A stretch of 63,363 nt of DNA, filler included, from Collodictyon triciliatum (taxonomy: Eukaryota), in the NCBI GenBank assembly GCA_043381765.1. It is 15 parts of 15 records of this genome, joined end to end, with 100 filler letters (N's around TTAATTAATTAA, not from the genome) between each part and the next. Parts side by side here need not be neighbours in the genome. Positions count along the whole stretch, not along the records: positions 47,362 to 51,787 come from JBHJMP010006108.1; 14 more parts are not named here. One strand, written 5' to 3'. Below the pieces are notes generated by a model, which did no database searches, was not told where the DNA came from, and saw nothing but the letters and a program-made list of their open reading frames with translations. Made by a program: the position numbers and the translations under genes. This document shows positions 2,578 through 58,593 of the stretch, one piece after another; position 1 is the stretch's first letter; the number at the start of each line of letters is the position of its first letter.

Positions 2578-5500
2578 ACGGAAATCTTCCAGACTTTAAT
2601 CTCCCTAGTATTACGTATTTGAATCTCTTTGTGAATCGAATTACTGGAACGATTCCAGACTTTCAAGGAATGCCGAATATTCAACATCTTGAGATTGACG
2701 GGAATGAATTGGAAGGAACAATACCAGATTTTTCTGGAATACAGTCGCTGAAAACATTATATATTGGCGATAGTGAAAAAATTACAGGTACAAAGTAATT
2801 TCCAATATTATTTAGTCTGAATTCTAATGATTTTTCATTTCAGGAACTCTGCCTGACTTCTCAGCGTTGCCAAATATTCAGATTCTTTGGATATATAGCT
2901 GCAAAGTTTATGGTTTGTTTTTAATTATTTTAAATATGATGGCATAGAAAAACTAACTTTTTATTACAGGAACCGTTCCAAACTTCAGTGGAATTCCAAA
3001 TGTTGAAATAATTTCTCTTGGCGACAACCATTTGACTGGTAATTTTAGTTATTATTTCATATATAATTGATACAAAACTAACTTTATATTACAGGAACCG
3101 TTCCAAACTTCAGTGGAATTCCAAATATTGAAATAATTTATCTTTTCAGCAATCAATTAACTGGTAAGTTTTAATTATTATTTCATGCATTATTGATGAA
3201 AAACTAACTTTATACAACAGGAACAGTTCCAAACTTCATTGGAATTCCAAATGTTGAAATAATTTATCTTTCCAGCAACCAGTTGACCGGTAAATTTTAA
3301 TTATTATTTTCATGTAATATAAATAAAAACTAACTTTATACATTACAGGAACAGTTCCAAACTTCAGTGGAATTCCAAATGTTGAAATTATTGATATTTC
3401 CAACAACCAATTGACTGGTAAATTTTATTTAAATTCCATGTGTTATTGATAAAAAACTAACTTTATATTACAGGAACCGTTCCAAACTTCAGTGGAATTC
3501 CAAATGTTTTAGGAATTTCTCTTTACAACAATCAGTTGACTGGTAATTTTTAATTATTAATTTCATGTAATATTAATAAAAACTAACTTTATGCTACAGG
3601 GACAGTTCCAAACTTCAGTGGGATTCCAAATGTTAAAATAATTTATCTTTACAACAATCTATTGACTGGTAAGTTTTAATTATTAATTTCATGTATTATT
3701 GGTACAAAACTAACTTAACATTACAGGAACAGTTCCAAACTTCAGTGGAATTCCGATAGTTTTAAGAATTTATCTTGATAGAAACCGATTGAATGGTAAT
3801 TTCTACACAATTTACCTTTCTATTTCTTTTGATTTTACATTTCCTTTAATATTAATGAGTAATTTTAGGCGCAATTCCAAACTTTTCAAATATTCATAAA
3901 CTGGAGATTTTTTCTGTTTATGATAATCAATTGGAGGGAAATGTTCCTGATTTCAAATATTGCCAAAACACCAAGGAAATAGTGTTGTTCCGAAATAAGT
4001 TGTCAGGCACACTACCGATGTTCAATCTAAATAATCTGACAAGACTGGATGTGAGCGAAAACCAAATTATTGGCTCTATCCCAGAAAACTGGTCATTGCC
4101 TTCAATTAAATACATCGACTTGTCTTGGAACAAAATGAACGGCACAGTCCCAACCTATTTTCAGGGACTTTCAGAACTGAAATCACTCGTTTTGTCTCAC
4201 AATAAATTTTCTGGAAGCATGCCTGATTTATTCTGGAATCTGCCGAATCTAGTCACCATTGATTTGAGAAACAACTCATTTTCAGGAGACGTTGGTATTT
4301 TTATCTCACCAGCTTCAGTGAATTACGATTACTTTTATGAAAACCTTTTGCTTGATGACAACCAATTGAATGGAGTATTGAATTGGTGGATATTTAACTA
4401 TGTTATTAACGTAAAAACATTAAGTATTAAGAATAACAACATCACTAAGCTTGATGAACTTACAAATCTATTGAGATGGACTTCCCTTGACCTCACTGGA
4501 AATCCGATTGTTGGAAATATCCCTGAATCATACATCGGGTTTTCAAAGCTTGAGCATCTGGGATTGAATAAAACATCGATGAATCACGGAACAGCCAGTT
4601 TCCTTCCTGTTTTCATGAATTTCACAACATCTTTCAATCTCCAAGATGAAACAAAACGCTACCTTTGTCCTTCCATTATTTCGAAATCTGGTCTGGTTGA
4701 GTTGGAGGTTGACTTGAATCCAGAATACTATGACTTCGAATTTTGTAAATGCTTGCCTGGTTATTTTGGCTTTGGAAACAATTGCGTTCAATGCCCAAGA
4801 GGATGTGATTGCCTCGATGGAACGTCCTTGAAATTCTGTCATGCTTCACCAAGCATCACCTCTGTGAAATCAATACTGCCATGTCCACGTCGAGAGTCAT
4901 GTGATGTGTCGATTCCAGAGAAAATTTCGAATTCAAATACGACGGTCGAAATCATAGACCTGTGTCAAGAAGGTTATGAAGGGTATGCCTGTTCAAAATG
5001 TCAGAATGGATACGGAAATCACGGAAGGTCATGTGTGAAATGCGATAAAGGAACGATTTATTTAACCCTGATTATTGGTTCGATTGGATTCTTTATGTTC
5101 ATTTGCTACCTGTATTTCACAGAGACATCGAAATCAGGTAAATGTCACTAAATTATTTCACGTGATTCTCATATTAATCAGAATATTTCATTCAGCGAAA
5201 CTCAGGATAATAATGTTCCACATGCAAACACTGTCGATTGTGTCTAGTGGAATCGTTCTTTCAGAAGATGCAAACAGCTTTATTGATGTTTCATCGTCGA
5301 TTGGTTCAATCCAATTTCCCAACCTTTCCTGTGTCCTTGGAGTAGACGATGTGTTTGCTTCTCTGATGTTCAGTTTTGCAAGAATACCAATCTTTATCGT
5401 CGTTGGCTCATCCACGTACTATTTTGGACATGGACACAAGCAGAACAAAGTAAGGATGGAAAAATATATTCAGTTGTGAATCTTTATATTAGTTTCAGTT

Positions 5501-6994: not shown

Positions 6995-7094
6995 NNNNNN
7001 NNNNNNNNNNNNNNNNNNNNNNNNNNNNNNNNNNNNNNTTAATTAATTAANNNNNNNNNNNNNNNNNNNNNNNNNNNNNNNNNNNNNNNNNNNN

Positions 7095-38295: not shown

Positions 38296-41200
38296 AATCA
38301 GCATGCGAGCTTTGTCAACCCGGTTCATATAATCCCAATATTGGCCAATTTTTTTGCATGAATTGTACTGATGGAACCTACAATCCAAAATTTGGTTCAA
38401 CAAGCAACACATCGTGTATTGAATGCCCCAAAGGGACTTATGGAAGTGAGCTAAGAGATGAATGCACATCATGCCCAGCTGGAACATTCAACAATAAAAC
38501 TGGCTCACATAACCAATCATCATGCATTTCATGTCCAAACGGAAGCTACAGCTCAGAAAGAAGCTCGTCATGCAGTTTATGCTTATCAGGATTCTATCAA
38601 AAAGAAGACATCACAAAAGATTCAAGCTCATGCTATACTTGTCCAAAAGGCACATTCAACTCAAACTCCGGCTCATATGGGTACAAATCATGTATTGAAT
38701 GTCCACAAGGCACTTGGAATGATAAAGATGGTCAAGCATCGTGTAAATCATGCCCAGCTGGTACATTTAACAATAAAACTGCATCAGATAATCAATCATC
38801 ATGTATTCCGTGTCCAAATGGAAGCTACAGCTCGGAAAGAAGCGCATCATGCTTTTCATGTTCACCAGGATTCTATCAAAAAGAGGTAGTCACAAAAGAC
38901 CAGAAATCATGCTATGCATGTCCAAAAGGTACATTCAACTCAAACTCCGGCTCATATGGATACAAATCATGTATTGAATGTCCACAAGGCACTTGGAATG
39001 ATAAAGATGGTCAAGCATCATGCACATCATGTCCAGCTGGTACATACAACAATAAAACTGGCTCATTTGATCAATCATCATGTATTCCGTGTCCAAATGG
39101 AAGCTACAGCTCAGAAAGAAGCGCATCATGTATCTCATGTTCACCAGGATTCTATCAAAAAGAGGGAATCATAAAAGACTCAAAATCATGCTACGCTTGT
39201 CCAAAAGGCACATTCAACTCAAATTTCGGCTCATATGGAAATGCATCATGCGTTGAATGTCCACAAGGTACTTGGAATGATAGAGATGGTCAAGCATCAT
39301 GTACATCATGCCCAGCTGGTACATTTAACAATAAAACTGGTTCATTCAACCAATTATCATGCATTCCATGTTCAAACGGAAGCTACAGCTCAGTTGGAAG
39401 CGCATCGTGTAGTTTATGTTTATCAGGATACTATCAAAAAGAGGTAGTCGCAAAAGACCAGAAATCATGCTATGCTTGTCCAAAAGGTACATTCAACTCA
39501 AATTTCGGTTCATATGGAAATACATCATGCATGGAATGTCCCCAAGGCACTTGGAATCATAGAGATGGTCAAGCATCATGCACATCGTGTCCAGCTGGTA
39601 CATTCAACGATAAAACCGGTTCAATTGAATTATCATGTATTACATGTCCAGATGGAAGCTACAGCACAGACAGAAGCGCATCTTGCAGCTCATGCTCATC
39701 AGGATACTATCAAAAAGAGGTAGTCGCAAAAGACCAGAAATCATGCTATGCTTGTCCAAAAGGTACATTCAACTCAAATTTCGGCTCATATGGCAATAAA
39801 TCTTGTGTTGAATGTCCACAAGGGACTTGGAATGATAGAAATGGTCAAGCATCATGCACATCATGTCCAGCTGGTACATTCAACAACAAAACGAGTTCAT
39901 TCAACCAGTCATCATGCATTTCATGCCCAGATGGAAGCTACAGCTCAGAAAGAAGCGCATCATGCAGCTTATGCTTATCAGGATTCTATCAAAAAGAAGG
40001 AATCATAAAAGACTCAAGCTCATGCCATACTTGTCCAAAAGGCACATTCAACTCAAATTTCGGTTTATATGGAGACAAATCATGTATTGAATGTCCACAA
40101 GGTACTTGGAATGATAGAGATGGCCAAGCATCATGCACATCGTGTCCAACCGGAACATTCAATAATAATACTGGCTCATTCAACCAATCATCATGCATTT
40201 CATGTCCAGATGGAAGCTATAGCTTATCTGGAAGCTCATCATGCAGCTTATGCTTATCAGGATTCTATCAAAAAGAGGGAATCATAAAAGACTCAAAATC
40301 ATGCTACGCTTGTCCAAAAGGCACATTCAACTCAAACTTCGGCTCATATGGAAATACATCATGCATGGAATGTCCACAAGGCACTTGGAATGATAGAGAT
40401 GGTCAAGCATCATGCACATCATGTCCGGCTGGTACATTCAACGATAAAACTGGGGCATTCAATCAATCATCATGCATTTCATGTCCGAATGGGAGCTACA
40501 GCTCAGAAAGAAGCGCATCATGCAGCTCTTGCTCATTAGGATTCTATCAAAAAGAAGGAATCATAAAAGACTCACAATCATGCTATGCTTGTCCAAATGG
40601 CACATTCAACTCAAACTCCGGCTCATATGGAAACACATCATGTATTGAATGTCCGCAAGGTACTTGGAATGATAGAGATGGCCAAGCATCATGCACGTCA
40701 TGTACAGCTGGTACATTCAACAATCAAACTGGCTCAGATAATCAATCATCATGCATTTCATGTCCAAACGGAAGCTACAGCTCAGAAAGAAGTGCATCAT
40801 GCAGTTTATGTTCACCAGGATTGTATCAAAAAGAAGATATCACAAAAGACTCCAAATCATGCTATGCTTGTCCAAAAGGCACATTCAACTCAAACTTCGG
40901 CTCATATGGAAACAAATCATGTATTGAATGTCCACAAGGTACTTGGAATGATAGAGATGGTCAAACATCATGCACATCATGTCCAGCTGGTACATTCAAT
41001 AATAGAACTGGCTCATTTAATCAATCATCATGCATTTCATGTCCGGATGGAAGCTACAGCTCAGAAAGAAGTGCATCATGCAGTTTATGTTCACCAGGAT
41101 TCTATCAAAAAGAAGGAATCACAAAAGACTCACAATCATGCTATGCTTGCCCAAAAGGCACATACAACTCCAACTCCGGCTCATATGGAAACAAATCATG

Positions 41201-42729
41201 TACTGAATGTCCACAAGGCACTTGGAATGATAAGGATGGTCAGGCATCATGCACATCATGTCCAGATGGGACATTCAACAATCAAACTGGCTCATTTAAT
41301 CAATCATCATGCATTTCATGTCCAAATGGAAGCTACAGCTCAGAAAGAAGTGCATCATGCAGTTTATGTTCACCAGGATTGTATCAAAAAGAAGGAATCA
41401 CAAAAGACTCAAAATCATGCTATGCTTGTCCAAATGGCACATTCAACTCAAACTCCGGCTCATATGGAAACGAATCATGTACTGAATGTCCACAAGGCAC
41501 TTGGAATGATAAGGATGGTCAGGCATCATGCACATCATGTCCAGTGGGTACATTCAACAATAAAACTGGCTCATTTAATCAATCATCATGCATTTCATGT
41601 CCGAATGGAAGCTACAGCTCAGAAAGAAGTGCATCATGCAGTTTATGTTCACCAGGATTGTATCAAAAAGAAGAAAACATAAAAGACTCAAAATCATGCT
41701 ACGCTTGTCCAAATGGCACATTAAACTCGAACTCCGGCTCATATGGAAACACATCATGTATTGAATGTCCACAAGGCACTTGGAATGATAAAGATAGTCA
41801 GGCATCATGCACATCATGTCCAGCTGGTACATTCAATAATAAAACTGGCTCATTCAATGTATTATCATGTATTTCATGTCCAAATGGAAGCTACAGTCCA
41901 GAAAGAAGCGTATCATGCAACTTGTGCTCACCAGGATTCTATCAAAAAGAGGGAATCAAAAAAGACTCGAAATCATGCTATGCTTGCCCAAAAGGCACAT
42001 TCAACTCAAACTCCGGCTCATATGGAAACAAATCATGTACTGAATGTCCACAAGGCACTTGGAATGATAGAGATGGCCAAGCATCATGCACATCATGTCC
42101 AGCTGGTACATTCAACAATAAAACTGGCTCATTTAATCAATCATCATGCATTTCATGTCCAAATGGAAGCTACAGCTCAGCTGGAAGTTCATCATGCTTT
42201 TCATGTTCACCAGGATTCTACCAAAGAGAAGGAATCATAAAAGATTCAAAATCATGCTATGCATGTCCAAAAGGCACACTCAACTCAAACTCCGGCTCAT
42301 ATGGAAACACATCGTGTATCGAATGTCCACAAGGTACTTGGAATGATAAAGATGGCCAGGCATCATGCACACCGTGTTCAGCTGGTACATACAACAATAA
42401 AACCGGCTCATTCAACCAATCATCATGTATTACATGTCCAGATGGAAGCTACAGCTCAGTTGGTGGCGCATCATGCAGCTTATGCTTATCAGGATTCTAT
42501 CAAAAAGAAAGTGTCATAAAAGACTCACAATCATGCTATGCTTGTCCAAATGGCACATTCAACTCAAACTCTGGCTCTCATGGAAACAAGTCATGCATTG
42601 GATGTCCCCAAGGCACTTGGAATGATAGAGATGGTCAAGCATCATGCACATCATGCCCAGCTGGTACATTCAACAACAAAACGAGTTCATTCAACCAATC
42701 ATCATGCATTTCATGTTCAAATGGAAGCT
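38296..42729 (+). CDS. Giant Cys-rich repeat surface protein (GCC2/GCC3, ephrin-receptor-like CPxGT repeats), partial at both ends
   Basis: Open frame across the whole scaffold; about 15 copies of a 93-aa/279-bp unit with 10 Cys and many N-x-S/T sites. Confidence 0.92.
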
Positions 42730-42836
42730 NNNNNNNNNNNNNNNNNNNNNNNNNNNNNNNNNNNNNNNNNNNNTTAATTAATTAANNNNNNNNNNNNNNN
42801 NNNNNNNNNNNNNNNNNNNNNNNNNNNNNGATTATG

Positions 42837-47261: not shown

Positions 47262-48332
47262 NNNNNNNNNNNNNNNNNNNNNNNNNNNNNNNNNNNNNNN
47301 NNNNNTTAATTAATTAANNNNNNNNNNNNNNNNNNNNNNNNNNNNNNNNNNNNNNNNNNNNTGTTTGTTTTTTCTGTTTGTTTTTTCTGTTTGTTTTTTC
47401 TGTTTGTTTTTTCTGTTTGTTTTTTCTGTTTGTTTTTTCTGTTTGTTTTTTCTTTTTCTTTTTCCTTTCCTTTTCTTTTTTCCTTTTCTTTTTTCCTTTT
47501 CTTTTTTCCTTTTCTTTTTTCCTTTTCTTTTTTCCTTTTCTTTTTTCCTTTCCTTTTTCTCCTTTCCTTTTTCTCCTTTTTTCCTTTTTCTCCTTTTTTC
47601 CTTTTTTTTTCCTTTCCTTTCTTTTTCTTTTTCTTTTTTCATTTTTTCATTTTTTTCTTTTTTTTCGGTCTTATTCAGCCTGTAAATGAATAAACTTCAT
47701 TACAAATGTTGTGACGAACTTGGTTTTATCCCTTTCAAGGCACATCACTTTTTATACAACGAAAGTGTACCCATACAATCCAATCTATTGCACAGACGAC
47801 CATCGAATTAAATCTGGGTTGACAAAAGCAGGAGCTTTGATGAATCCAAGAAACAACCAGAATAATATAAAAGTATGATTAGTATATATAATAAGATTAA
47901 AAATGCTTAAAAATCATTCTATTCCTGTAATCAATTTATATTTTATTATCCATTATACAATATTATCATTAAAATTCAAAGATGACAAACAAGCCCTTGC
48001 GTTGGCCCAGACAGAACCCAGTCTATAAACCTGCCACCAAACATGCATTTCAAAAAAAGCATAATGTCCACACTTGCGGCGGTAATCATGTTGTTTGGGG
48101 CCGATATGTTGACTTTCAGCCACAATGGCTATACGGCCGTCCTTTCCAACTCGCCGAATCGGCTCGGCGTTTTGTCTCAAATCACTTGCATAAAAAACTT
48201 TGAGTGTTTGTTTGCCACAAAGCGCATGTTTTGAAAGTCTCGGTAGATGCTTAATTTTACATAAATTGATTTTTGCAGTTTTTTAATTGAGTAATTGACT
48301 TAAGATTTACTGAAATTGAAAACTCGGTAGTT

Positions 48333-50269
48333 TTCTAAAGGAAAAAGTAAAACAAAGACTTCCAGACGAAGAAAAGAAAACGTTTTGAGTCTGAGAATCT
48401 AAAGTCTGTAAAACCACACTGTCGTAATCTGAAAACATCTCTAAAGTCGATTGTAAAGAATGTGGATGACTATTACAAAAAACGATACGGTTTTATTGTG
48501 TCATAATTTGGTCACCGAAATTTAACTGTTTGCGGGATGTTACGTATTGAAATCACAACAACTCCCAACAATCGGTGAAATGCTTTTTTTGTACGCTTTA
48601 AAGACAGTCGAAACAGTTTCATGTGATAGAACCCGCAAGATTTTAAAAAAAAACCAGATATGAGAGATGCCATGATGACTTTTTATCTCTACGATTTTCG
48701 ATTCCTTTTGTCCCAAGAAGAACGCTTTCCGTTGGTTAGACTGCCTCATACATTACCGTACTTGGCGAAGCAAATGCTAACAGCTTACCATAATAACATT
48801 AAGGAGCATGTCGTAAAGAGGTTACTACGCTTTATAAACCAAACAGTTCCTAAATATGAGAATATTACGGAAGCTATTAAAAAGCCAGAGTTACGAAAGT
48901 TAAAAAGTCATCTTCAAGAATCTCGAAATACCGGAACAATATAAAGAATGGGCTATACTCCATTTGCATCTTATCATTCCCGGCGATATTGTAAAAGGTA
49001 TAGAATATGACGTCAAAGTCCACCAAATAAGTACATTCCATGTCTGATTTACATGAATCGCATTTTTGGGGACATTAGAGCCAAAAATTTTCAACCAATT
49101 TCTATAATAACTAATTATGTAATATGATATATTACTCTAGATAATGCATGTTTGATAGGTCTATTAGTATTGTCTGGAAAAATATCATTACTGAAGAATA
49201 TATCAGGATGCATAGAAACACTATGGTTTGATTTCTTTGAAATGAAGAAGAGAGTCTTTCATCAAAGAGACTACAATTTTAAATACATGATACAAACAGA
49301 CGGCTTGGCGGGGTCATTATTGTTTGAAAAGAAAGGCATTTCAATTCAAAATTCCAATATAACAACAACAAAAAAAAACTAGAATATGTTTATATAGATG
49401 AACTTTCCGAAGAGCAGTTATCTTCATTAGCGACAAAAAATAAAATAAAAAATAACATAGTTTAATGGATGCACGCAACTTTAATCTGGTTTACATGGTG
49501 GATGAGACAGGTAAGAAATTCCGTTTCATGGCGCACCAAAGACATGATAGCAAACCTCTTAAAAATCACAAAATACTCTTGTGCGAAAAAAAAAGGTAAA
49601 GTAAAATGCTTCAGGGATATGCATAGCAACAGATTTACAAAGTGCTGTTTATTTTGGTGCCATGACTTTTGAAGAGAGTCAGCGGTTTGAGACATCAAGA
49701 GTATCTTTAATCGATTTAGAGACAGAACTGAGTAAACATAATTCATGCATGGTCGATTATGAAAAATTTCGAAAATATGTATCTATGAAATCAAGATACC
49801 AGATAGAATTATCCATATTTTATGAACAAGTAACTTTTCGAAAGATGAGATGGAGACAGTATTGTTAATACAAAAAGAAGTTAGCAATTGTTTATGGTCC
49901 GAATCGAAAAGACATTTGGCAAGGATGTTGTACTGGTGAATGGAGAGTGGAGCAGAAAATGTCGATGAACCATCTTATGCCAACAATCGGAAGAGGATTA
50001 CGAAAAATACAATCCAAACATTTTGAAACAGTTACCGTGGATGAATTTAGAACCTCCAAAATGTGCTGCAACTGCGAAAAAGAACTGAAATATATGAAGC
50101 CGAAAGGAAACTCAAAAAAAAAAAGGTGTTTAGATGTCTCATATGTAAAGAATGCAATCGCCCAGAAAGCAAACAAAGAGTATTTTTGACAAGGGACTTT
50201 AACAGCGCTAATCGTATGCTCAAGAAAGTTCTTTTTATCTTTCAAAGAATGCATACACCTTTCTCTTAA
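48333..50269 (+). pseudogene. Fanzor1 (TnpB-like RNA-guided RuvC endonuclease), frameshifted
   Basis: Collinear fragments across frames: KTSLKSIV; LPYLAKQMLTAYHNNIKEH..LLRFIN; IEYDVKV; ITLDNACLI; IQTDGLAGSLLF; RuvC-I D (MDARNFNLVYM, 49468); FRKMRWRQY; GEW..MNHLMPTIGRGLRK; RuvC-II VDEFRTSKMCCNC (E at 50043); CKEC; RuvC-III TRDFNSANRM (D at 50195). Several stops and frameshifts. Confidence 0.9.
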
Positions 50270-50281
50270 AAAAAAAAAAAT

Positions 50282-50416
50282 AGGCTGTCGGGTCTTTCCA
50301 GGCAGCCTTCACCACTACATAATCTTTGTGAAAAAAGTGGTGAGACCTTGGATACTAGCGCACCAGGTTTACCAATCGAAAGATTGGCATACCCCTTCTA
50401 GTAGTGAAACAAACGA
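50282..50416 (+). ncRNA. Predicted Fanzor omegaRNA scaffold plus guide
   Basis: Immediately downstream of the Fanzor stop. Stems at 50282-50289/50301-50308, 50309-50316/50336-50343, 50345-50351/50363-50368 and 50372-50377/50382-50387 (GAAA loop). The loop sequence TACTAG (50353-50358) is complementary to CTAGTA (50398-50403). Confidence 0.65.
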
Positions 50417-50710
50417 GTCTAAATGATTTCCAAATATGTCATTTAGACAAGTGAAGAAACAAGAAAACAAACTGAAAAGGACTTATCGTTCTGTCAGTTG
50501 AACTGCGCCCGCGACTCCCAACGACCCGCCAAATACCCGGCCAAAGCACCAAACGGCGCCCGCCGCAGCAGTCCCCGGACTGTGTCTAAGTCTACGAACA
50601 TTTGTCCCAAAGCCGCCTCCGCAAACTCTCCACTCTGCTTCCTCAGTCGCGTTCAACATTCTCAACCACGCATACAATTCATATACGTGCGCATGCGAAC
50701 AAAGCTAAGG

Positions 50711-56471: not shown

Positions 56472-58593
56472 ATGGAGCAAGAGCACAAGGCCCCACCCGT
56501 AGGATGTGTCACAGGGGCTGAATATGGGCCTTTGCAAGGCTCTGTGTGGAAGCGGACAAGTTTCATGAAAAGCTGGCGTCCTCGCTACTTTGTGGCTTCC
56601 GTTCCTGGCATATTGGAATACTTTTCCAACTCTCATACAAGAAAGCGTTTGTCGACTATAAAGTAAATCTGATACAATACATCTATTCATTTTCGGTTGC
56701 TAGGGTTCAATTTTTTTCTTTTTCATTCTGAAAAGCAATATTAAATTATAGTATGTTAAGTTTAACTTGCAACCATCATAAAATATGAAGAGACCTCTTT
56801 CATTTGATAATTTGACAAATATATCTTCCTACTCATAACAGAAGCCTTATATGTTAACAAAGTACGATTTGAATTTATGATATTTTTTTTTCAATCACAC
56901 CCTTCTTATCAAGATCCATTACTGTTTTTTTTTTTTTTTTAATTAATATCTACGTTTGACACAGTTTGTCTGAGGCAGAAATAACCCCATCTTCAAGCAA
57001 AGATGATCAATTTACCGTCACATTAAAAGGAAAGACAGTGTATGTCAAGGTAAATTCGATGGAAGAACGGAATATATGGGTCAGCACTCTTCTGACCTCA
57101 AAGAAATGCTATCTAAAGAGTCTATCTAAGTAAGGTCCAGTTTTTGATGGTTGTGTCAAGAGTTTCAACATAGATGATACATATGTATACCAGTTTATGA
57201 TACTTCTCGTTTGTTTGTATTTCATATTAGAGCTGTCAAGTTGAACCTCAGCATGTCTGTGACCCAAATGACAAAAATACACCAGGAGATGGAATCAATT
57301 AAGAGCTATAATGTTAAATTCATCGCCCATCTCCGCCAATTAAAAGTTCAAGATGCATCGGAAGCTGAAAATATTGAAAACATAGCAAGAGATCTGATTT
57401 CTGCTGTTGAAGAGTGTGTAAATGTGATGGACGAGTATGCAAGGCAATTGGAAACCACAAATGCTCATCGCCGCGTATCCGAGGAAGATAGTGAAACATT
57501 CTATAGCATGAATGTACATATTTAGAGATTCTGATGATTATTTTGAATTTTTATTGTCTTATTCCTGCCACTTTGAATTTGAAGTTTTTTTTTTTTTACC
57601 TCTCTCCTTATGTCGCTCACACGCAAAACAAAAAAAAAAAACTCTTGTTGTTGCTCTTTCCAGTTCGTTCATCTTGTCTTCAATTATACATATTTTCCCA
57701 TAATCCTGATGTAGGAACCCTCCTCAGAGGATGAAGAGGATGACGATGAAGATGACGCCGAGGAGTTTGGAGTGATTCCACCACACGAGTCCCCAAGTTT
57801 TGAGGAACTGGCAGAACAAAGCAACCCCGAGGATAATCCTGGAAAGATATCATCACAGAGTAGATTCAAGCTATGGAAAGAATCCTTCAGACAGAAAAAG
57901 GATAGCAGCGATTCCCTTCACGGGCACTATATGCCCTGCAAGCCTTTCCGGAAAGATGTTGAGTGGACACCTGTCGTGAAAGCATCATTCCGACAAACAC
58001 TGCCATCAGTCAAATTGCCTCGGCGACACAACATGTATGAAGCTTTCAAACAGTTCATAGGACAGGATATTTGCTGTATCCTCACACCCATCGAGTGGCA
58101 CGAGCCCATTGGCTTGTTGCAGCGTTTCTGTGAAATGGTTGAGTATCATTCCCTCTTGGAGACGGCTGCGTCGAACGTGGACCCGATTCAAAGAATACTG
58201 CACGTTGCTGCTTTTGCTGTATCCAGTTACAGCCGAACAGACCATAGGTATAGCCTAAATGCTTATTGTATTCGCTGACAATCACCACATAACATATCAC
58301 AGTTCGTAGATGCTTACGAGCGGATATAATATTGAGTGTATTTGGTTGTGATGTGCTGTTAGAGAATATCCATTCCACATGGAATTGTGTCCTATGTTGA
58401 TATTTATTTCTTTAATGCTTCTTTTTCCTTCTCCTTTAAAAAAAAAAAAAAGGAAGGAAAAGAATCGTTCTAGCACTGAAACTAATAATGCCTCACACTT
58501 TCTCATACCCACAGGTTTAATCTTCCTTTCAAACCATTTCTTGGGGAGACATACGAATACGAAACTTCACACATCCGCTTCATCGCGGAGCAG
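56472..58593 (+). CDS. Oxysterol-binding protein-related protein, 5' part (PH domain + start of ORD)
   Basis: PH motif LQGSVWKRTSFMKSWRPRYF; ORD motifs IGQD..PIEWHEPIGLLQR, RILHVAAFAVSSY and PFLGETYE..RFIAEQ. Confidence 0.9.

What the first reader, a model, noticed from the sequence alone, without database searches (positions are those of the whole stretch)
50282..50403. Intact-looking omegaRNA scaffold directly after the Fanzor stop codon
Seen: four nearly back-to-back stems in ~105 nt: AGGCTGTC/GGCAGCCT (one G-U), TCACCACT/AGTGGTGA (perfect 8 bp), ACCTTGG/CCAGGT (one bulge) and CCAATC-GAAA-GATTGG (GNRA tetraloop). The stem-3 loop TACTAG can pair with the terminal CTAGTA as a pseudoknot. Known: TnpB/Fanzor omegaRNAs come from the element's right end and pair a loop with the last scaffold bases just before the guide. 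Inference: this is the cognate guide scaffold. Its pairing survives although the ORF is broken, so it may still be used in trans.
Basis: partly seen in the sequence, partly recalled or inferred. Interest (0 to 1): 0.88.

Follow-up and report, generated by a model that had tools for sequence, protein, structure and literature searches.

The report
Guide-RNA scaffold of a dead Fanzor
The folded stretch is the guide-RNA (omegaRNA) scaffold at the right end of a decayed Fanzor1 transposon nuclease gene, a correct but fairly ordinary example of a known kind of element.

Summary
All four stems and the TACTAG/CTAGTA pairing sit at the stated coordinates. The 122 nt fold at -41 kcal/mol, z -3.4, with 0 of 200 shuffles as good. 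The stretch ranks 13th of 2994 same-size windows.

Upstream lies a Fanzor1 pseudogene (48369-50257). Its relatives in giant-virus and metagenome contigs all carry a conserved, covarying 3' RNA that ends sharply.

A covariance model built from the seven loci of the nearest subfamily, without the window, finds one significant match in the whole 63 kb: 50275-50402, + strand, 24.2 bits, E 7e-5. Two broader models and nhmmer do not reach significance there.

So the 'cognate guide scaffold' reading is supported. Three details are not:
- In intact relatives the reading frame runs about 20 codons into the scaffold, so 'directly after the stop' is an effect of decay.
- The terminal pairing matches a nested helix in relatives, not a shown pseudoknot.
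- Use in trans is untested.

This is a new member of a known kind.

The parts
48369..50269 (+). Fanzor1 pseudogene. RuvC motifs are still readable (MDARNFN, VDEFRTSK, TRDFNSA). There are at least 6 frame changes and several in-frame stops.
   Evidence: tblastn of P0003; three-frame reading. P0003 matches solved Fanzor1 proteins: GtFz1 2e-28, PpFz1 3e-24, SpuFz1 4e-23. Other copies lack the window's indels at 49862, 49967 and 49022 (table 4).
50268..50281 (+). A-run between the premature stop and stem 1. It corresponds to the Lys codons (KK) of intact relatives and is 6 nt longer than in other copies.
   Evidence: table 4 (6 letters left out at 50268 in X2 contigs).
50275..50403 (+). omegaRNA scaffold as a whole
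   Evidence: R2 covariance-model match 50275-50402, 24.2 bits, E 7.2e-5, the best of the whole window. 24 of the window's 25 aligned pairs are standard pairs.
50282..50308 (+). Stem-loop 1 (extends to 10 pairs, GGCTGTCGGG / CCAGGCAGCC). It is homologous to stem 1 of the L001-type RNA.
50309..50343 (+). Stem-loop 2 (TCACCACT / AGTGGTGA plus a small inner hairpin). It is homologous to the covarying TGACC/GGTCA and inner stem of relatives.
50345..50368 (+). Stem 3 (ACCTTGG / CCAGGT). It is weak, has no counterpart in relatives, and competes with the terminal helix.
   Evidence: probability 0.11.
50372..50387 (+). Hairpin 4 with GAAA loop, in the variable interior of the scaffold
   Evidence: probability 1.0. 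It lies in the 37 nt that the model leaves unaligned.
50353..50403 (+). Terminal long-range helix TACTAG / CTAGTA, which closes the 3' domain just before the guide
   Evidence: It aligns to the family's terminal helix (TTTAC / GTAAA).
50404..50423 (+). Flank that would serve as the guide. This is inferred, and its length is taken from published Fanzor1 guides.
   Evidence: Inference. Another copy reads a run of A here instead (table 7). In relatives, conservation stops at the equivalent point.

Best explanation
Window 50275-50403 (+) encodes the omegaRNA scaffold at the right end of a decayed Fanzor1 element.

How it would work in intact relatives (inferred):
- The Fanzor gene and this RNA are transcribed in the same direction.
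- The reading frame ends about 20 codons inside the scaffold.
- The scaffold is bound by the nuclease. It consists of stem-loops 1 and 2, a variable interior with one hairpin, and a terminal helix that brings the last scaffold bases next to an upstream strand.
- The 15-20 nt of flanking DNA transcribed after base 50403 act as the guide.

What is shown: the position, the strand, the fold, the homology to a covarying RNA of related Fanzor1 genes, and the end of likeness between copies at 50403.

What is inferred: transcription, binding and guiding, taken from published Fanzor1 work.

This copy's gene is dead. The RNA could act only with a nuclease from another copy, and I put that at about 0.15-0.2.
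For: 1. Gene. The Fanzor1 pseudogene lies on the same strand and ends at 50257-50269. Its nearest protein, P0003 (55% identity, E 5e-41), matches three solved Fanzor1 proteins.

2. Family RNA.
- 142 of 160 related loci carry the 3' motif at the expected distance.
- Conservation falls from about 2 bits to about 0.2 bits per position right after ...AAGGTGTAAA, in 110 distinct sequences.
- Of 29 hand-set pairs, 93.5% of cells pair, against 45-54% when partners are slid. 15 pairs change on both sides, and 0 of 500 shuffles reach this.
- On 45 model-aligned sequences without the window, 34 of 44 pairs change on both sides.

3. Homology.
- Model R2 was built from 7 loci of the subfamily nearest in protein identity, window excluded.
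- Its best match in 63 kb, both strands, filters off, is 50275-50402 +, at 24.2 bits and E 7.2e-5. The next match has E 0.75.
- True family members of another subfamily score 14-36 bits with R2.
- In the window's row 24 of 25 pairs are standard, and 11 differ on both sides from L001.

4. Tails. Gene calls of intact relatives read KKQAVG... through stems 1 and 2. P0003 has A where the window has G opposite the U of stem 1, which keeps the pair.

5. Right end. Two X3 contigs read GG..CCTTCTAGTA and then a run of A, where the window reads GTGAAAC (table 7).

7. Literature (passages read). Fanzor1 omegaRNAs lie at the 3' end and may overlap the reading frame, by 17 aa in GtFz1 (PMC10432273). The first stem-loop is the conserved core and the rest varies (PMC11423790).
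Against: - Model R1 (57 sequences, mostly the other subfamily) gives no match here at E up to 10.
- nhmmer with the nearest subfamily gives none.
- The broad model R3 finds the same coordinates, but at 11.9 bits and E 1.5, rank 7 of 24.
- So significance rests on one of three models, whose structure I set by hand after seeing the window. The tool's E-values are rough.
- 64 interior model positions are replaced by 37 unaligned bases.
- No DNA of the window's own clade could be fetched, so covariation within that clade is untested.
- Contig pieces over the RNA are 85-90% like the window, no better than pieces over the gene (88-95%, table 8). The RNA therefore shows no extra conservation.
- The - strand folds equally well.
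- There is no evidence on transcription.
Confidence: 0.8

Rival explanations
1. It is the relic of an omegaRNA gene with no present role. The copy is dead, and the stems persist only because little time has passed or because short GC-rich hairpins survive decay.
For: The gene carries at least 6 frame changes and several stops. The RNA part is no better conserved among copies than the gene (table 8).
Against: 24 of 25 family pairs are intact in this copy. In the published Fanzor1 case SpuFz1, omegaRNAs without a gene of their own ('ghost') worked with the nuclease (PMC10432273, passage). Neither point proves use.
Confidence: 0.65
2. The last 32 bases are a DNA signal for a rolling-circle (Helitron1-type) transposase: a subterminal hairpin, about 10 nt, then CTAG followed by T. 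On this reading they are not an RNA feature, or not only one.
For: CCAATC-GAAA-GATTGG is followed by 10 nt and then CTAG|T. Helitron1 ends carry one 3' subterminal hairpin and CTRR (PMC3627910, passage). Fanzor1 genes are reported inside Helitrons (PMC3627910 and PMC10530073, passages).
Against: The homologous terminus in relatives reads GTAAA, not CTRR. The left end and a 5' TC could not be located. The seven window reading frames scanned showed no rolling-circle transposase domain, but that was a partial scan. CTRR near a boundary is easily a chance match.
Confidence: 0.1
3. The conservation is that of a protein tail. The C-terminal extension of the nuclease is under selection, and the hairpins are incidental.
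For: In relatives the reading frame covers much of the element, and the tail reads ...EKVGQSVDFT in many.
Against: Compensatory changes occur in the stems. Conservation continues past the stop to a sharp end. The window's stems are kept although the frame is lost.
Confidence: 0.03
4. It is a chance fold in non-coding DNA.
For: Both strands fold equally well. Two of three models and nhmmer give no significant match.
Against: Its rank is 13 of 2994. The only significant R2 match in 126 kb of strand falls exactly at the expected place.
Confidence: 0.02

Closest known systems
omegaRNA of Guillardia theta Fanzor1 (GtFz1)
   Same: It belongs to a Fanzor1 and lies at the 3' end of the gene. It overlaps the last codons (17 aa) and has a first stem-loop plus three more before the guide (PMC10432273 and PMC11423790, passages). 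GtFz1 is the best solved match of P0003 (E 2e-28).
   Different: Its RNA sequence was not on hand, so no RNA comparison was made. Protein likeness is distant.
SpuFz1 omegaRNA and its 'ghost' omegaRNAs
   Same: The scaffold lies at the right end with the guide taken from the flank. Ghost copies without a gene still work with the nuclease (PMC10432273, passage), which is the precedent for use in trans.
   Different: The SpuFz1 scaffold is 75 nt with two stems and a linker and has no pseudoknot. Here there are about 125 nt and four or five helices.
Conserved 3' RNA of the giant-virus and metagenome Fanzor1 family found here (loci L001-L160)
   Same: It holds the same position and has stem 1, the TGACC/GGTCA-type stem with an inner hairpin, and a terminal helix before a sharp end.
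   Different: The interior differs: 37 nt with one GAAA hairpin against about 64 positions with two or three helices. The terminal bases are CTAGTA against GTGTAAA. Only the nearest subfamily's model detects the window.
ISDra2 TnpB omegaRNA (reRNA)
   Same: It comes from the right end, overlaps the gene's 3' end, and has its guide beyond the element.
   Different: It is bacterial and associated with TnpA. Its pseudoknot is a defining structural feature (PMC10432273, passage), which is not shown here.
Helitron1 3' terminus
   Same: A subterminal hairpin is followed by about 10 nt, then CTAG and T.
   Different: No 5' TC end and no rolling-circle transposase were found. Relatives do not end in CTRR.

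Membership tests
Fanzor1 omegaRNA | Lies at the 3' end of a Fanzor1 gene, on the same strand | tested here: met
   The pseudogene 48369-50269 is on the + strand. P0003 matches solved Fanzor1 proteins.
Fanzor1 omegaRNA | Scaffold runs to the element's right end, and the flank beyond differs between copies (the guide) | tested here: met
   In the window's own clade this rests on only two contigs of one run (table 7). In relatives, information content drops right after the terminal motif in 110 distinct sequences.
Fanzor1 omegaRNA | Conserved secondary structure with compensatory changes among relatives | tested here: met
   Met in related subfamilies. It could not be tested in the window's own clade because no DNA was available.
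Fanzor1 omegaRNA | Detectable likeness of this stretch to the relatives' RNA | tested here: met
   R2 gives E 7.2e-5 as the top hit. R1 gives no hit, nhmmer none, and R3 E 1.5.
Fanzor1 omegaRNA | Transcribed and bound by the nuclease | not testable with these tools
   No run on record as RNA was listed.
Fanzor1 omegaRNA | Directs cleavage next to a target-adjacent motif | not testable with these tools
   The left end and any empty site are unknown.
TnpB-type omegaRNA | Pseudoknot next to the guide | tested here: inconclusive
   TACTAG/CTAGTA can pair with stem 3 in place, which would be a pseudoknot. But stem 3 has probability 0.11 and no counterpart in relatives, where the helix is nested.
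Helitron1 terminus | 3' subterminal hairpin and a CTRR end, inserted before T | tested here: met
   Read from the sequence. A chance match is not excluded.
Helitron1 terminus | 5' TC end after A, with the same ends in other copies | not testable with these tools
   The left end was not found. There is no terminal inverted repeat either.
Helitron1 terminus | The terminus is kept as CTRR in related elements | tested here: not met
   Relatives end in ...GGTGTAAA.

The most novel reading that the evidence does not exclude
The dead copy keeps a working 'ghost' omegaRNA. Intact Fanzor1 paralogues of the same genome would load it and cut the empty allele of this very site, so decayed elements would still be copied back in. 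On this view the scaffold, not the gene, is the unit that selection keeps.
Probability: 0.15. Interest if true: 0.6.

Novelty: new member of a known kind. Interest (0 to 1): 0.35.

Why it matters
Fanzor guide RNAs are known, so this finding adds a member rather than a principle. Three things are still useful.

1. It ties a repeat in a eukaryotic genome to a large Fanzor1 family of giant viruses and freshwater metagenomes through both the protein and the RNA.
2. That RNA family has clear covariation and a sharp 3' end. It matched no Rfam 15 family in the window stretch or in the three related loci searched, so a model of it could annotate hundreds of loci.
3. Dead genes with intact scaffolds are the natural place to test whether 'ghost' guides act in nature.

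Tried and rejected
- Whole genome: none is held.
- Second copy inside the window: none.
- Earlier notes of this scan: none.
- Rfam: only a sub-threshold RcsR1 match (22 bits against a gathering score of 60).
- DNA of the window's own clade:
  - Genome contigs with P0003 gave nothing.
  - Genome contigs with the alignment gave 3 loci of at most 39% identity.
  - Two DNA patterns in viral contigs gave 65 and 97 stretches, and none of the 165 new loci is otherwise alike.
- Model R1 and nhmmer gave no match at the finding. Model R3 was not significant there.
- R1 and R3 place a weak match at 58392-58546 (E 0.014 and 0.044). It is A/T-rich low complexity, and I reject it.
- I thought 48100-48200 resembled the relatives' 3' RNA (TCGGCGTTTT...). 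No model or nhmmer supports this, so I dropped it.
- Terminal inverted repeat: none. The best local score was 14, against a shuffle mean of 15.4.
- A blastn match of 50402-50444 to the coding tail of relatives (76%, E 0.04) I take as chance in A-rich sequence.
- Sequencing runs: no RNA holder is listed. X2 is only guessed to be RNA, so nothing is said here on expression.
- Contigs laid at 80% likeness leave almost no cover right of about 50384 (table 2). A part without cover is not used as evidence here.
- Read laying listed only 40 of 712 differing places, none inside 50282-50403. Covariation among copies could therefore not be read from it.

Full report
**What is there.**
- stem 1, 50282-50289 with 50301-50308;
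- stem 2, 50309-50316 with 50336-50343;
- stem 3, 50345-50351 with 50363-50368;
- a GAAA hairpin, 50372-50387;
- TACTAG 50353-50358, complementary to the terminal CTAGTA 50398-50403.

The + strand folds at -41.0 kcal/mol, against -28.6 +/- 3.65 for 200 dinucleotide shuffles. That is z -3.40, with none of the shuffles as good. The - strand does as well (z -3.28). Among 2994 122-nt windows of the same 63 kb, the stretch ranks 13th after GC correction, and most better ones are simple repeats.

In the nested ensemble, stems 1 and 2 and the hairpin are near certain. The terminal helix has probability 0.82 and stem 3 only 0.11.

**The gene upstream.**
A three-frame reading and tblastn with the nearest protein show a Fanzor-type gene at 48369-50257 on the + strand. 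It has at least six frame changes and several in-frame stops. The motifs MDARNFN, VDEFRTSK and TRDFNSA are still readable.

Read through with X at the stops, its last 176 residues find one long protein, P0003 (648 aa, 55% identity, E 5e-41). P0003 matches the solved Fanzor1 proteins of Guillardia theta (2e-28), Parasitella parasitica (3e-24) and Spizellomyces punctatus (4e-23).

The family is large:
- 243 proteins at E up to 1e-5 in the word-indexed search;
- 3147 representatives at E up to 0.001 in the exhaustive one.

The window itself is eukaryote-like. It holds reading frames with LRR repeats and 31 ephrin-receptor-like repeats, and no genome is held for it.

**Relatives carry a conserved RNA.**
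- 417 of 481 candidate stretches in viral contigs, and 510 of 596 in metagenome contigs, encode relatives. I kept 80 of each.
- In 142 of these 160 loci a motif ...AAGGTGTAA lies 170-270 nt behind the RuvC-III region. That gives 116 distinct sequences and 59 representatives at under 90% identity.
- Information content is 1.2-2 bits per position up to that motif and about 0.2 bits from two bases after it, in 110 distinct sequences.
- On 57 representatives (L032 and L037 were dropped for large insertions), 29 hand-set pairs are paired in 93.5% of cells, against 45-54% with slid partners. Fifteen pairs change on both sides, and 0 of 500 shuffles reach this.
- RNAalifold alone recovered 10 pairs, 9 of them with compensatory changes.

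This is what a Fanzor guide-RNA scaffold looks like in print: a conserved, structured 3' region that runs to the right end (PMC10530073 and PMC10432273, passages read).

**Is the window's stretch the same RNA?**
The answers were mixed.
- Model R1, built from those 57 sequences (mostly one subfamily), gave 19 weak matches in the window and none at the finding.
- nhmmer with the eight loci of the L001-type subfamily also gave none.
- I then built R2 from seven of those loci, the L001 type. By protein identity (41-47% to P0003) this is the subfamily nearest to the window's clade. I set 44 pairs by hand on its own sequences.
- With filters off, R2's best match in the whole window on both strands is 50275-50402 +, full model length, 24.2 bits, E 7.2e-5. 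The next match has E 0.75.
- R2 finds 45 of 58 related loci at E up to 0.001, always at the gene's 3' end. Members of the other subfamily score 23-36 bits, so the window scores like a true but distant member.
- The alignment pairs the window's stem 1 with the family's stem 1. It pairs TCACC/GGTGA and the inner hairpin with the covarying TGACC/GGTCA and inner stem. It pairs ACTAG/CTAGT with the terminal helix TTTAC/GTAAA.
- In the window's row 24 of 25 pairs are standard, and 11 differ on both sides from L001.
- The interior is not aligned: 64 model positions against 37 bases that hold the GAAA hairpin.
- Model R3, rebuilt from the 45 matches (again mostly the other subfamily), finds the very same coordinates but only at 11.9 bits, E 1.5, rank 7 of 24.

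So one of three models is significant, and it is the one from the nearest subfamily. Its match falls at the one place predicted beforehand. I take that as good but not overwhelming evidence.

A variable interior behind a conserved first stem-loop is what the solved Fanzor1 complexes show (PMC11423790, passage).

**The window's own clade.**
No DNA of it could be fetched. Two indirect views exist.

1. Protein tails. Gene calls of close relatives run on past the window's stop:
   - P0003 ...LFKKQAVGYSSTALTVTHKRMRM;
   - P0272 ...KKQAVGFHSAACMVTHRNM;
   - P0273 ...KKQAVGYLP.

   The window reads K K stop A V G S F Q A A F T T T in that frame. So stems 1 and 2 lie inside the reading frame of intact copies. 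The stop 'directly before' the RNA is a lesion of this copy, and its A-run is 6 nt longer than in other copies (table 4).

2. Contigs of four public runs from four studies (labels: subsurface metagenome, organism A, freshwater metagenome twice), laid at 80% likeness.
   - They hold many copies 80-99% alike.
   - Several lack the window's one-base indels at 49862, 49967 and 49022.
   - Two X3 contigs continue as GG..CCTTCTAGTA and then a run of A, where the window has GTGAAAC. Likeness therefore ends at 50403, or at 50401 if TA belongs to the target.
   - Pieces over the RNA are 85-90% like the window, no better than pieces over the gene. I see no sign that the RNA is kept better than the gene.

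**Mechanism.**
Shown:
- position and strand;
- the fold;
- homology to a covarying RNA;
- the end of likeness at 50403.

Inferred from published Fanzor1 work:
- transcription with or behind the gene;
- binding of the scaffold by the nuclease;
- use of the next 15-20 flank bases as guide.

The terminal pairing is a family trait, but in relatives it is a nested helix. With stem 3 unsupported, the pseudoknot is possible but not shown. SpuFz1's RNA has none (PMC10432273).

Use in trans has a precedent in the 'ghost' omegaRNAs of S. punctatus (same paper), but nothing here tests it.

**A side reading.**
The hairpin, 10 nt, then CTAG|T fits the Helitron1 3' end (PMC3627910, passage). However, relatives end in GTAAA, no left end or inverted repeat was found, and the seven reading frames scanned showed no rolling-circle transposase domain.

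**Verdict.**
The main interpretation is supported at about 0.8. This is a new member of a known kind, of modest interest.

Noticed in passing
window 50416-50447: A perfect 10-bp inverted repeat, GTCTAAATGA ... TCATTTAGAC with a 12-nt spacer, lies 13 nt beyond the element's end, inside or just behind the would-be guide.
   Followed up: no
window, 14 places from 2478 to 58937: Paired runs of 44 N separated by 12 bases recur, mostly about every 4.53 kb (for example 2478-2577, 6995-7094, 47262-47361). This looks like regular masking or a scaffolding artefact, not biology.
   Followed up: no
window 38358-42785 (+), 35560-37362 (-), 3931-5151 (+): There is a 1475-aa reading frame with 31 ephrin-receptor-like cysteine-rich repeats, and two LRR proteins. 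These are host genes of a eukaryote.
   Followed up: partly
window about 32820-33000: An AT-rich stretch (GC 0.11-0.25) has the strongest folding excess of the whole window, probably a long AT palindrome or repeat next to an N run.
   Followed up: no
window 50403 and other copies: In two contigs of another copy the element's end CTAGTA is followed by a run of at least 12 A (table 7). This could be an A-rich target or a poly(A) tail of a retro-copied transcript.
   Followed up: no
window 48264-48341: Single contigs of two runs (X2, X3) skip 66-67 bases here (table 5). The window may carry a small insertion in the element's 5' leader relative to other copies.
   Followed up: no
L032, L037, L053, L078, L140, L150 (3' RNA region): Some relatives carry extra GC-rich hairpins inserted in loops of the conserved RNA, for example about 50 nt in the loop of the second stem of L032. 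The loops tolerate insertions.
   Followed up: no
L001:1289-1602 (-): A cluster of four tRNA genes lies about 1.4 kb upstream of the Fanzor gene in a 254-kb giant-virus contig.
   Followed up: no
window 58392-58546: Models R1 and R3 give weak matches (E 0.014 and 0.044) in A/T-rich low-complexity DNA. I judge them spurious.
   Followed up: partly
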